Sequence record: MN342151.1
Source: Escherichia phage vB_EcoM_3HA14
Reading direction: 5' to 3' (one strand)
Length of the DNA stretch: 64,000 nt
The notes under the pieces were generated by a model. The model was not told the DNA's origin. It saw nothing but the letters and a program-made list of their open reading frames with translations, and did no database searches. The position numbers were made by a program, and so were the translations under genes. Shown here in pieces: positions 60,635-62,173 of this stretch (its first letter is position 1; each line of letters opens with the position of its first letter).

Positions 60635-60887
60635 ATTAAATCTTTGTAGAGAACTGCTAAGACGCCAAAGCAACAATGGTATCAAATGCCTTAACAATTC
60701 TCTAAAAAGACCTATTGGCCTCTGCATAGTCTTGCTTAATCCGGTGACTAGAACCTTTGGAGAGCTTGATACTATCTCTTCTCCGTGACACCTACTAGGT
60801 GCTTTACCAGTGCCGTGTACGCCAATACACGAAGAGGAAACCTGAAACACTTGCTCGAACAAATAGTCTCAGCTTTAAATCTTATTA

Positions 60888-60977
60888 GGCGGTAGATAAA
60901 GGAGTCGAACCCTCACCGTATCTCTACAATGGCAACTGTTTTCAAGACAGTTTGGCTTCCATTAGCCGCTACCTACC
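60888..60977 (-). tRNA. tRNA-Ser (UGA), long variable arm
   Basis: acceptor GGTAGGT/ATCTACC, anticodon stem ACTGT/ACAGT, loop CTTGAAA, about 20-nt variable arm, G73; CCA only partly encoded. Confidence 0.65.
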
Positions 60978-60990
60978 CCTAATAAGACTT

Positions 60991-61073
60991 TGGCATGGGA
61001 CGGAGGATTCGAACCCCTTTGAGTAAGTTTTGGAGGCTTACGCACATGCCTTAGTGTCTTAACATCGTCCCAT
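60991..61073 (-). tRNA. tRNA-like gene, possibly Trp (CCA), atypical D region
   Basis: perfect acceptor ATGGGAC/GTCCCAT and T-arm; candidate anticodon loop CTCCAAA; about 7 extra nt in the D region. Confidence 0.3.
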
Positions 61074-61238
61074 ACTATATTTCGAAGCTTACCCTGTTAT
61101 CTCAACACTGTCAAGCTTCTTCTCAGATTATTTACATGTTCTGGAAAACATGAGATACAGACCACCTCCTTATGAGATTGACTCTTTCAAGTCAATGCGG
61201 AGACCCATAAAGGTCGTCATAGTAATCTGCTAACTAAT

Positions 61239-61310
61239 TGGCAGTCAAGGTAGGAGTCGAACCTACTTACTATTAAAGGGAGCTACCCTTCAGCAACTAT
61301 CCGACTTTCG
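61239..61310 (-). other. tRNA-like element with intact T-arm but truncated body (possible pseudo-tRNA or tRNA-derived RNA)
   Basis: T-arm GTAGG-TTCGACT-CCTAC, acceptor 3' strand and CCA present; only about 68 nt, no convincing anticodon arm. Confidence 0.3.
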
Positions 61311-61367
61311 TTTATCTCTTAACGCGTATCCAAGATAACTTACTCGTGTTGTCTTGACCATTAAAAT

Positions 61368-61444
61368 TGGCACACCCTACAGGATTCGAACCTGTAACTG
61401 ACGGTTTAGAAGACCGTTGCTCTATCCGTTTGAACTAAGGGTGC
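61368..61444 (-). tRNA. tRNA-Arg (UCU)
   Basis: acceptor GCACCCT/AGGGTGT, anticodon stem ACGGT/ACCGT, loop CTTCTAA. Confidence 0.7.
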
Positions 61445-61691
61445 ATTATCTTTAAAGGCTCTCTTAGAAAACCCTTAAAGATGCCCACTTTATTAATCAT
61501 ACCGTGGGCTAGTACGCCAAATTCTTTAACAGGGAGTTGGAATACCCTGCTGGTGTTTAGCCTATTAAGCTACTGCCAGAAAAACATTATCGTTTGCATT
61601 TATTTTTAAGTTTTTAAAATAGACGCTACGCTAACGAAAACTAAGGTTATCTTAAAGTGGTCACATCTAAATGTCAACAACTTTATGAAAT

Positions 61692-61766
61692 TGGTTGTAG
61701 GTGAGGGTATCGAACCCTCTTCTAACGGTTATCAGCCGTTTGCATTACCATTTATGCTAACCCACA
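61692..61766 (-). tRNA. tRNA-Ile (GAU)
   Basis: anticodon stem AACGG/CCGTT, loop CTGATAA; T-arm GAGGG-TTCGATA-CCCTC. Confidence 0.65.
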
Positions 61767-61768
61767 AT

Positions 61769-61845
61769 TGGAGGTTCAGGTGGGAATCGAACCCACATTC
61801 ATAGGGCTTATGAAACCCTTGCATTACCTTATCTGCGACTGAACC
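61769..61845 (-). tRNA. tRNA-Met (CAU)
   Basis: acceptor GGTTCAG/CTGAACC, anticodon stem AGGGT/GCCCT with three G-C pairs, loop TTCATAA. Confidence 0.65.
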
Positions 61846-61926
61846 ATTATAAGTTGCCCCTTTGTAGAGAACTGATTGAGTGGGTGTTTCCAGCCGCGCA
61901 TGTGTTCTTCAGTTAAGGGGCGAATT

Positions 61927-62002
61927 TGGTAGAAGTGGAGGGATTCGAACCCGTCGCCTGTCAGATTAAAAGTCTGCCGCATCACCATTCTGCTACACTT
62001 CC
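61927..62002 (-). tRNA. tRNA-Lys (UUU)
   Basis: anticodon stem CAGA/TCTG, loop CTTTTAA; same weak T-stem as the 60475-60550 paralog. Confidence 0.55.
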
Positions 62003-62173
62003 ATTAAATCATCTTTGCAGTAACCTACGCAAACCTTGCTAAAGGGTTTGTAGAGTCATCTCTTATAAGCTAATCTAGAATCATGCTCAAGAGACTCTTC
62101 GGCACTCATGGGACGACTGGTTAGCTCCATAAGTCACTGCAAAGAGGATTACCAGACCGTATTTATCTTAAGT

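What the first reader, a model, noticed from the sequence alone, without database searches (positions are those of the whole stretch)
60642..62056. Recurrent motif CTTTGTAGAGAACTG immediately 5' of tRNAs
The 15-mer occurs at 60642-60656 and 61860-61874, each within 15 nt of a tRNA 5' end on the minus strand, with partial copies at 62047-62056 and about 63264. Its position fits a promoter element or leader-processing signal for tRNA sub-operons.
Basis: seen in the sequence. Interest (0 to 1): 0.35.

Follow-up and report, generated by a model that had tools for sequence, protein, structure and literature searches.

The report
Hairpin stem strand in tRNA-array spacers
The repeated 15-base motif is real, but it is not a promoter: it is the descending strand of RNA hairpin stems in two different, unannotated structured spacer RNAs that a Felix O1-like phage transcribes together with its tRNA genes.

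Summary
The window is a Mooglevirus (Ounavirinae) phage, 99% identical to Shigella phage Sf17, with 26 minus-strand tRNAs. CTTTGTAGAGAACTG occurs exactly twice, 7 and 14 nt upstream of tRNA-Leu(UAG) and tRNA-Met.

Window-wide, exact 15-mer repeats are common. Within the 1.7 kb of tRNA spacers, a repeat this long is rare (about 0.2% of shuffles).

Read in RNA sense, copy 1 is the 3' strand of a 26-bp stem ending a 253-nt spacer RNA. That RNA is conserved across Felixouna-, Moogle- and Suspviruses, with compensatory changes and G·U pairs.

Copy 2 lies in the lower stems of a 67-nt, tRNA-sized hairpin. This hairpin comes and goes as a cassette. It also occurs in tRNA arrays of Vequintavirinae and a Yersinia phage, where the 15-mer is not conserved but the apical domain is invariant.

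Neither RNA matches Rfam or E. coli. No sigma-70-like site lies at the motif; better promoter candidates lie elsewhere.

I read the motif as structural: the closing-stem strand of self-folding spacer modules that sit in tRNA-like slots. These are probably released by tRNA-processing enzymes, but this step is inferred, not shown. The exact identity is lineage-specific drift.

A Ro60-like gene flanks the array.

The parts
60642..60656 (-). Motif copy 1 (RNA sense CAGUUCUCUACAAAG). It is the 3' strand of stem H7: ten nt are paired, one C is mismatched and AAAG is paired.
60695..60709 (-). 5' strand partner of copy 1 (CUUUUUAGAGAAUUG). Pairing is better in RNA sense: one G.U and one U.C, against two mismatches on the + strand.
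   Evidence: sequence read directly
60637..60714 (-). Hairpin H7: a 9+17 bp stem with a branched apex that carries a conserved loop UUGUUGCUU. It ends 2 nt upstream of tRNA-Leu(UAG).
   Evidence: z -5.0; 99.8% of cells paired against 40-63% when slid; 8 of 16 pairs vary with pairing kept in all but one cell
60635..60887 (-). 253-nt Ser(UGA)->Leu(UAG) spacer RNA. It has a variable, compensated 5' hairpin (H1), a nearly invariant ~90-nt core, and H7.
   Evidence: no Rfam match; no E. coli match
61860..61874 (-). Motif copy 2. It covers the 3' strand of helix P2, the 3' half of an internal loop and the first 3 nt of closing helix P1 of hairpin El2.
61853..61922 (-). El2: a 67-70-nt three-helix hairpin. 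The closing stem is GCCCCUU/AAGGGGC; the apical domain UGCGCGGCUGGAAACACCCACUCA is invariant in all copies but one (L034, compensatory change) and ends in a GAAA tetraloop. It occurs once in the window.
   Evidence: (93.9 bits)
61846..61926 (-). 81-nt Lys(UUU)->Met spacer holding El2. It is a tRNA-sized cassette that is present or absent among relatives.
60558..60634 (-). tRNA-Leu(UAG), immediately downstream of H7.
61769..61845 (-). tRNA-Met(CAU), immediately downstream of El2.
62007..62150 (-). Leader module of tRNA-Lys(UUU): a 4+18 bp closing stem around a three-way junction. It contains the 9-mer partial copy at 62047-62055, and its 3' strand ends ...CUGCAAAGAUGAUUUAAU.
   Evidence: I3; z -5.8
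60134..60228 (-). Thr->Val spacer hairpin. Its 3' strand CAGACCUCUUCAAA(G) matches the motif at 12 of 15 positions and abuts tRNA-Val.
   Evidence: z -3.6
61448..61482 (-). 16-bp hairpin ending 3 nt upstream of tRNA-Arg(UCU) (...CCUUUAAAGAU AAU).
   Evidence: I22; z -4.2
63183..63212 (-). Best sigma-70-like promoter candidate upstream of the first tRNA (TTGACA-18-TATAGT with TG). It is not at the motif.
61649..61677 (-). Internal promoter candidate (TTGACA-17-TAAGAT) just downstream of tRNA-Ile. Felix O1's predicted P45 lies in a similar position, just downstream of its tRNA-Ile.
   Evidence: PMC3185647

Best explanation
The 15-mer acts at the RNA level, not as a DNA signal. The tRNA array is transcribed from the minus strand. 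Its long spacers are self-folding RNA modules whose two ends pair, so each module occupies a slot like a tRNA. Each is flanked by the same A/U mini-spacers that separate adjacent tRNAs (AAUU... upstream, ...AUUUAAU downstream).

The motif is the descending (3') strand of the basal stems of two such modules. One is the terminal 26-bp hairpin of a conserved 253-nt spacer RNA upstream of tRNA-Leu. The other is the lower stems of a mobile 67-nt, tRNA-sized hairpin (El2) upstream of tRNA-Met.

Shown: the stems are maintained by compensatory evolution. The sequence of the motif is not itself conserved. The modules are cassettes. No promoter signal is present.

Inferred: the stems insulate the modules from tRNA folding. 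RNase P cleavage at the downstream tRNA, followed by 3' trimming back to the stem, releases the modules as stable small RNAs. The long stems may also be RNase III substrates.

The exact 15/15 identity is a lineage-specific end point of ordinary drift. Two purine-poor stem strands were already about 14/15 alike, possibly through an old duplication of hairpin modules.
For: Conservation and structure of copy 1:
- It is present across three genera with compensatory changes. AAUUG/CAGUU is replaced by GGCUU/AAGCU or GGCUU/AAGUU.
- In H7, 99.8% of cells are paired against 40-63% in slid controls. 8 of 16 pairs vary and pairing is kept in all but one cell. There are many G.U pairs that would be A.C on the other strand.
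- Nine unrelated H1 sequences all fold as a hairpin at the same place.

Structure of El2 (copy 2):
- Thirteen homologues fold into the same P1/P2/P3 architecture.
- The covariance-model alignment gives 81% of cells paired against 39-57% slid, with 4 doubly compensated pairs in P1.
- The 15-mer is replaced in homologues: Henu11 UAGUUCUUCUACAAAG, Sf19 AGUUCUUCCCUAAAG, EcSzw-2 AGCUCUUCUCCAAAG, KhF3 AGUUUCUCUAACUAG, Mydo AGUUCAGAUACUCAG.
- The apical domain is invariant in all copies but one (L034, where the change is compensatory).

Cassette behaviour:
- The Lys->Met spacer is 81 nt or 4-6 nt; Asn->Tyr is 69 nt or 9-10 nt.
- El2 also sits between tRNAs in Vequintavirinae and in a Yersinia phage. 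There it ends ...GGC-A-CCA, like an acceptor stem.

Other points:
- The mini-spacer pattern is shown.
- Other tRNA leaders also end in long stems.
- No promoter site lies at the motif.
- The sequence-profile searches (nhmmer) and the El2 covariance model give no cross-hit between H7 and El2.
Against: - No expression or end-mapping data exist for this phage group. Release by RNase P and trimming, and any RNase III step, are inferred from established knowledge of E. coli tRNA operon processing.
- A shared 15-mer among 1.7 kb of spacers is unlikely by chance (p about 0.002). Related 9-12-nt versions recur in two more leaders. A sequence-specific role is therefore not excluded.
- In the model-fitted alignment, P2 of El2 is only 62% paired, partly through register errors.
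- The invariant cores of both RNAs imply functions that this explanation does not address.
Confidence: 0.65

Rival explanations
1. The 15-mer, or its core CUCUACAAAG plus the following A/U tract, is a sequence-specific RNA signal shared by several modules. It could be a nuclease entry or cleavage site (RNase E type, RN|WUU, in AAAG|AUUUAAU; or RNase III), or a binding site for a phage protein such as the Ro60-like protein.
For: - The repeat is non-random within the spacers.
- CUCUACAAA occurs 3 times in the array, against 2 elsewhere on that strand of the 64 kb.
- AAAGAU-N(0-3)-UUAAU precedes tRNA-Leu(UAG), Lys(UUU) and Arg(UCU), and in relatives Gln(UUG) and Arg(ACG).
- A Ro60-like gene is adjacent.
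Against: - The motif varies freely as long as pairing is kept.
- It is replaced in El2 homologues.
- In H7 it is fully double-stranded, whereas in El2 part of it is an internal loop, so the two copies do not present the same structure.
- AUUUAAU is simply the generic inter-tRNA mini-spacer.
- El2 is absent from most Felixounaviruses, which keep the Ro60-like gene.
Confidence: 0.15
2. It is a promoter or -10-like element that starts transcription of tRNA sub-operons.
For: It sits just upstream of tRNAs that follow long gaps. It contains TACAAA, a weak -10-like hexamer (read directly from the sequence).
Against: - There is no sigma-70-type site in the scan and no -35 hexamer at 16-18 nt.
- The spacer holding copy 2 is dispensable in relatives.
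- G.U-compensated helices show selection on the transcript across the motif.
- Near-matches elsewhere are inside ORFs in both orientations.
Confidence: 0.03
3. It is a DNA-level element: a target or footprint of the HNH homing endonucleases, or of the recombination that shuffles cassettes in the tRNA array.
For: - HNH genes sit exactly between H7 and tRNA-Leu in Michonne and EcSzw-2.
- El2 and other modules are present or absent as cassettes and are shared between phage subfamilies.
Against: - Strand-asymmetric G.U pairing indicates selection on RNA.
- The HNH insertion junction is at the tRNA 5' end (ATTTAATG|GGAGAT...), not in the motif.
- No HNH gene adjoins El2 in any locus examined.
Confidence: 0.05
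4. Pure coincidence: two unrelated sequences happen to share 15 nt, and nothing more is there.
For: - 15-mer repeats are common in the window.
- Exact identity exists only in the Sf13/Sf18/KPS64-like lineage. It can be reached from a Henu11-like sequence by one deletion and one substitution.
Against: - Within the spacers p is about 0.002.
- Both copies sit in the same structural position, the 3' strand of a basal stem directly before a tRNA.
- The Henu11 version already matches at 14 of 15 positions with one indel.
Confidence: 0.1

Closest known systems
Phage T4 stable RNAs species 1 and 2 (rnaC, rnaD) in the T4 tRNA gene cluster (my own knowledge, not tested here)
   Same: They are small non-tRNA RNAs of unknown function. 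They are encoded between tRNA genes, co-transcribed with them and cut out by the tRNA-processing machinery.
   Different: The present RNAs (253 nt and 67 nt) belong to Ounavirinae and Vequintavirinae, and their expression has not been shown.
Hairpin substrates of RNase P: E. coli 4.5S RNA precursor and phage phi80 M3 RNA (my own knowledge)
   Same: They are long hairpins whose paired ends mimic the acceptor stem. El2 has a 7-bp closing stem followed by A-CCA in Yersinia phage P778 and Salmonella phage KE23.
   Different: In the window El2 ends GGGGC-A-ACU, not CCA. Cleavage by RNase P is untested.
Bacterial and phage Y RNAs (YrlA) bound by Ro60/Rsr (PMC4201824)
   Same: They are structured RNAs with a long stem formed by paired ends. 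They are encoded within a few kb of, and on the same strand as, a Ro60-like gene. They have tRNA-like features and lie in or next to tRNA genes. A Felixounavirus Ro60-like protein (Bas63 gp130) has been proposed to use Y RNAs hidden among the tRNA genes (PMC11482910).
   Different: The Rfam YrlA model gives only chance-level hits that overlap true tRNAs (16-22 bits against a gathering score of 69). The GNCGAAN0-1G motif is absent from H7 and El2. The phage protein is a divergent DUF2828 family member.
RNase III processing stems (T7 R sites, rRNA operon stems) (my own knowledge; PMC1540722 for determinants)
   Same: They are stems of 20 bp or more between genes of a polycistronic transcript. 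H7 has 26 bp and the Lys leader 22 bp.
   Different: There is no cleavage evidence. El2 and the Arg leader stems are shorter or interrupted.
Sigma-70 promoter
   Same: Location upstream of a gene; a TACAAA hexamer.
   Different: There is no -35 hexamer, no scan hit, and the motif lies inside RNA helices.

Membership tests
Sigma-70 promoter | Two hexamers resembling TTGACA and TATAAT, 16-18 nt apart | tested here: not met
   The consensus scan of 57500-63400 lists 11 sites and none is at either copy. By eye the best -35 candidates match 0-2 of 6 positions.
Sigma-70 promoter | Primary transcript 5' end a few nt downstream | not testable with these tools
   No dRNA-seq data exist for Ounavirinae in the searchable library.
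Intrinsic terminator | G+C-rich stem followed by a U tract | tested here: not met
   The scan finds no terminator-like site at H7 or El2. The stems are A/U-rich and are followed by AUUUAAU or AACUUAUAAU.
Structured RNA helix (generic) | Pairing kept across homologues through one-sided and two-sided changes, and better than in slid controls | tested here: met
   H7: 99.8% of cells paired against 40-63% slid; 8 varying pairs including UA<->GC in 8 sequences. El2: 81% against 39-57%; 6 pairs with changes on both sides.
Any Rfam 15 family | Covariance-model score at or near the gathering threshold | tested here: not met
   There is no hit at E<=10 in 60635-60887 or 61846-61926.
tRNA / pseudo-tRNA (for El2) | Cloverleaf with D, anticodon and T arms | tested here: not met
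   ARAGORN and Rfam tRNA find nothing at 61846-61926. The fold is a linear three-helix hairpin with a 4-nt GAAA loop. Only the size (67-70 nt), the 7-bp closing stem and, in two phages, A-CCA are tRNA-like.
Hammerhead ribozyme (considered for El2 because of CUGA(A/U)GA ... GAAA) | Three helices around the CUGANGA / GAAA / UH core, with helix II closed by G10.1-C11.1 | tested here: not met
   No hammerhead model hits at E<=10. The segment between the two boxes does not form helix II, and the boxes are not conserved (GAGAAAC in KhF3, UGACGA in P778).
Y RNA / YrlA | Match to the YrlA model; GNCGAAN0-1G in the 5' strand of the terminal stem; located within 4 kb of Ro60 on the same strand | tested here: inconclusive
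   Location is met: the array starts 166 nt downstream of the Ro60-like gene on the same strand. The model is not met. The motif occurs only at 63106, 62224 and 62103, none in H7 or El2.
Y RNA / YrlA | Physical association with the Ro60-like protein | not testable with these tools
   This needs RIP or CLIP.
RNase III substrate | About two turns of dsRNA; staggered cleavage leaving 2-nt 3' overhangs | tested here: inconclusive
   The length criterion is met by H7 (26 bp) and the Lys leader (22 bp). Cleavage is not testable.
RNase P-released stable RNA (T4 species 1/2 type) | Located in a tRNA transcription unit directly upstream of a tRNA; discrete stable product | tested here: inconclusive
   The position is met. 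The product is not testable.

The most novel reading that the evidence does not exclude
The structured spacer modules of the tRNA array are the RNA partners (Y-RNA analogues) or decoys of the adjacent Ro60-like protein. These modules include the 253-nt RNA and El2, which carry the motif, and the acceptor/T-arm remnants at 60989-61076 and 61238-61360. A homologue of this protein in the Felixounavirus Bas63 counters the Ppl defence system. In this reading the recurring stem strand (CUCUACAAAG plus the A/U tail) marks a shared protein- or nuclease-recognition helix. The 'filler' between phage tRNAs would then be an anti-defence ribonucleoprotein system.
Probability: 0.12. Interest if true: 0.75.

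Novelty: new member of a known kind. Interest (0 to 1): 0.38.

Why it matters
Phage tRNA arrays are now studied as counter-defence tools, but the sequence between the tRNAs is usually treated as filler or annotated as spurious small ORFs. Here at least two spacer RNAs show the marks of function:
- compensatory evolution of their stems;
- a nearly invariant core;
- for one of them, horizontal spread between phage subfamilies as a tRNA-sized cassette.

They lie next to a Ro60-like gene whose Bas63 homologue has been tied to defence evasion. Defining these RNAs would correct annotation in more than 250 Ounavirinae genomes and give concrete candidates for the Y-RNA-like partners proposed for that protein. 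The 15-mer itself is of minor interest: it is a structural strand, not a signal.

Tried and rejected
- Promoter: no scan hit and no -35 hexamer.
- Coding: the minus-strand ORFs over the motif (60566-60862 and 61824-61988) overlap tRNAs, and homologues differ by 1-2-nt indels.
- Known RNA families: Rfam at E<=10 found nothing for either module.
- Hammerhead and kink-turn readings of CUGA(A/U)GA/GAAA and UGAUGA/CUGA in El2: the boxes are not conserved and no model hits.
- El2 as a decayed tRNA-Gly: the Mydo 'tRNA-Gly' annotation belongs to the neighbouring gene, and the element itself is unannotated.
- Host origin: no E. coli match for either RNA. The El2 apical 19-mer occurs in bacterial genomes only in unrelated contexts.
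- Homology between H7 and El2: the nhmmer profiles and covariance model R1 give no cross-hit.
- Gene conversion: identity stops exactly at the 15-mer, and the variants form a stepwise mutational series.
- YrlA motif search: inconclusive.
- Intron-containing tRNA search of the tRNA-like remnants: nothing found.
- Literature: no transcript maps of Felix O1-like phages or descriptions of these spacers were found.

Full report
**Context.** The window matches Shigella phage Sf17 (Ounavirinae, Mooglevirus) at 99% over the tRNA region. More than 300 related phage records exist. ARAGORN finds 26 tRNA genes, all on the minus strand, between 58124 and 63155. Most are 1-7 nt apart, but nine gaps of 69-424 nt contain no credible ORF.

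**Observation.** CTTTGTAGAGAACTG occurs exactly at 60642-60656 and 61860-61874. These sites are 7 nt upstream of tRNA-Leu(UAG) and 14 nt upstream of tRNA-Met.
- The partial copy at 62047-62055 is a real 9-mer. The one near 63264 is only a 6-7-mer.
One is an inverted copy with 2 mismatches at 60695-60709. The other is a 12/15 copy at 60133-60147 that touches tRNA-Val.
- Across the whole window an exact 15-mer repeat means little: there are 45 repeated 15-mers, and simulated sequences give 4.6 +/- 3.1.
- Among the 1,730 nt of spacers, a repeat of 15 or more arose in 2 of 1000 dinucleotide-preserving shuffles. The resemblance between spacers is therefore not random.
- All near-matches outside the array but one (27387) lie inside long ORFs in both orientations.

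**Copy 1.** In RNA sense (minus strand) the motif reads CAGUUCUCUACAAAG. It pairs with CUUUUUAGAGAAUUG 38 nt upstream.
- The 86 nt before tRNA-Leu fold into a 9+17 bp hairpin, H7 (-30 kcal/mol, z -5.0).
- The whole 253-nt Ser->Leu spacer folds well (z -3.3).
- It is found in 253 phage records, essentially all Ounavirinae.
- In an alignment of 32 distinct versions (A1), a ~90-nt core is almost invariant. The 5' hairpin H1 is replaced by at least nine unrelated sequences that all fold as hairpins.
- H7 changes by compensation. 99.8% of cells are paired, against 40-63% when the partner is slid. 8 of 16 pairs vary, including UA<->GC in eight sequences. There are many G.U pairs that would be A.C on the other strand.
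- Ten of the 15 motif bases are in this helix. The motif itself varies: AAGUUCUCUAAAAAG in Felixounaviruses and AAGCUCUCUACAAAG in Moogle.

This shows selection on a minus-strand transcript, not on a DNA site.

**Copy 2.** The 81-nt Lys->Met spacer is absent from Moogle, HP1 and most Felixounaviruses, where the two tRNAs are 4-6 nt apart. It is therefore a tRNA-sized cassette.
- It folds as a three-helix hairpin, El2 (z -3.6).
- BLAST finds it at 84% identity between tRNA genes of Vequintavirinae (Mydo, BIS47, KE23) and of Yersinia phage P778, always in the tRNA orientation.
- It also occurs in phage-like metagenome contigs, but not in bacterial genomes.
- Thirteen variants fold alike. The apical domain UGCGCGGCUGGAAACACCCACUCA, with its GAAA loop, is invariant in all but L034, where the change is compensatory. 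P1 and P2 covary.
- In P778 and KE23 the closing stem is followed by A-CCA.
- The 15-mer spans the 3' strand of P2, an internal loop and the start of P1, which are the variable parts. Homologues carry other sequences there.
- The series Henu11 (UAGUUCUUCUACAAAG) -> Michonne (one U deleted) -> window/Sf13 (U to C) -> Sf17 (G to U) shows ordinary stepwise drift. There is no identity beyond the 15 nt.
- The nhmmer profile searches and the El2 covariance model give no cross-hit between El2 and H7.

**General pattern.**
- Other tRNAs that follow long gaps are also preceded by long stems: Lys(UUU) with a 22-bp closing stem (z -5.8), Arg(UCU) with 16 bp (z -4.2), and Val (z -3.6).
- Adjacent tRNAs are separated by AAUUAU, AUUUAAU or AAUAAU. 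Long spacers begin with AAUU/AUUU and end with ...AUUUAAU or ...UAUAAU. Each module thus sits in a tRNA-like slot.
- Several hairpin types are repeated within the array. This fits growth of the spacers by duplication of modules.
- AAAGAU followed by (UU)UAAU recurs before several tRNAs in relatives.

**Promoters.** No sigma-70-like site lies at the motif. Candidates lie at 63212->63183 and 63302->63274, upstream of the first tRNA, and at 61677->61649, just downstream of tRNA-Ile. The Felix O1 paper predicted a promoter (P45) just downstream of tRNA-Ile in that genome (PMC3185647).

**Mechanism.**
- Shown: the motif is a strand of RNA helices in two distinct structured spacer RNAs.
- Inferred from established knowledge of E. 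coli tRNA operon processing: RNase P cleavage at the downstream tRNA, followed by 3' trimming back to the stem, would release these modules. The stems would insulate them and protect their ends. The stems of 22-26 bp could also be RNase III substrates.
- A sequence-specific role for CUCUACAAAG/AAAGAU is not excluded, but it is disfavoured by the compensatory variation and by the different structural settings of the two copies.

**Comparison with known systems.**
- The nearest analogues are the T4 stable RNAs species 1 and 2, and hairpin substrates of RNase P (my own knowledge).
- Neither RNA matches Rfam or E. coli.
- The gene just upstream of the array is a DUF2828 + vWA-like protein. The structure model of a homologue best matches Ro60/Rsr.
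- The Bas63 homologue gp130 was reported as Ro60-like and as a counter of the Ppl defence, with the suggestion that some 'tRNA genes' are Y RNAs (PMC11482910).
- Y RNAs lie within 4 kb of Ro60 on the same strand and carry GNCGAAN0-1G (PMC4201824). Here the location fits, but the model and the motif do not.

**Verdict.** The promoter reading is wrong, and the 'leader' reading is right only loosely. What is there is a set of unannotated, conserved structured spacer RNAs. This is a new member of a known kind: phage small RNAs embedded in tRNA operons.

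Noticed in passing
63321-64000 (minus; gene continues beyond the window): The gene directly upstream of the tRNA array encodes a DUF2828 + DUF7788 (vWA-like) protein. 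A structure model of a homologue best matches Ro60/Rsr (2nvo, 9nen, 1yvp, 2i91). The Bas63 homologue gp130 is reported to counter the Ppl defence (PMC11482910).
   Followed up: yes
60989-61076 and 61238-61360 (minus): These are two tRNA-like remnants that ARAGORN does not call, even with introns allowed. Each has a 7-bp acceptor stem, a T arm (GGUUCGAAUCC / GGUUCGACUCC) and an encoded CCA, but a non-canonical body (88 and 123 nt). The second has the acceptor GGUCAAG/CUUGACU. They are candidates for tRNA-mimicking (YrlA-like) RNAs.
   Followed up: partly
62197-62271 (minus): Rfam tRNA scores 28.8 bits, just under the gathering score of 29. This is a decayed tRNA overlapped by a repeat of the D8 family. 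Its fold is no better than shuffles.
   Followed up: partly
61565-61752 (minus): There are sub-threshold Rfam hits to permuted tmRNA (36.5 bits, gathering score 47) and to alpha_tmRNA (61511-61648). The permuted-tmRNA hit overlaps tRNA-Ile and is probably driven by that tRNA.
   Followed up: no
62148-62285, 62744-62829, 62905-62992 (minus): This is a repeated hairpin family: CAGAAGRCC..(U/A)UUACAGCAAAC..GGUCUGG. It fills the Glu->Met and Met->Asn spacers and part of Asp->Lys. It contains a weak TTTACA-17-AACAAT promoter-like site (62281->62253).
   Followed up: partly
59212-59236, 61451-61475, 62371-62395: This is a second repeated short hairpin family (AAGGRUUCUUACGAGAGUCCUU type). In Citrobacter phage Michonne the copy between tRNA-Gln and tRNA-His is annotated as a terminator.
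   Followed up: no
L006 (Michonne) 3200-3672; L009 (EcSzw-2) 3779-4231: HNH endonuclease genes are inserted exactly between hairpin H7 and tRNA-Leu(UAG). The ORF's ribosome-binding site, GGGAG, is the first bases of an alternative tRNA-Leu allele (GGGAGAU...), so the insertion truncated or replaced a tRNA copy.
   Followed up: partly
62598-62666 (Asn->Tyr spacer): This 69-nt spacer is reduced to 9-10 nt in some Felixounaviruses (L003, L004). It is another present-or-absent cassette.
   Followed up: no
L070 (Yersinia phage P778) 1985-2054; L071 (Salmonella phage KE23) 1985-2054: In these phages the El2 internal loop reads GUGA(U/C)GA / UCUGAU (tandem G.A, kink-turn-like), and the closing stem is followed by A-CCA. 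In the window the loop and tail differ.
   Followed up: partly
62400-62426 (minus): A G+C-rich hairpin GAGAGGGCUUUUUAGCCCCUCC lies directly after tRNA-Asp. It may be a terminator or stabiliser at the start of the 424-nt spacer. The terminator scan did not call it.
   Followed up: no
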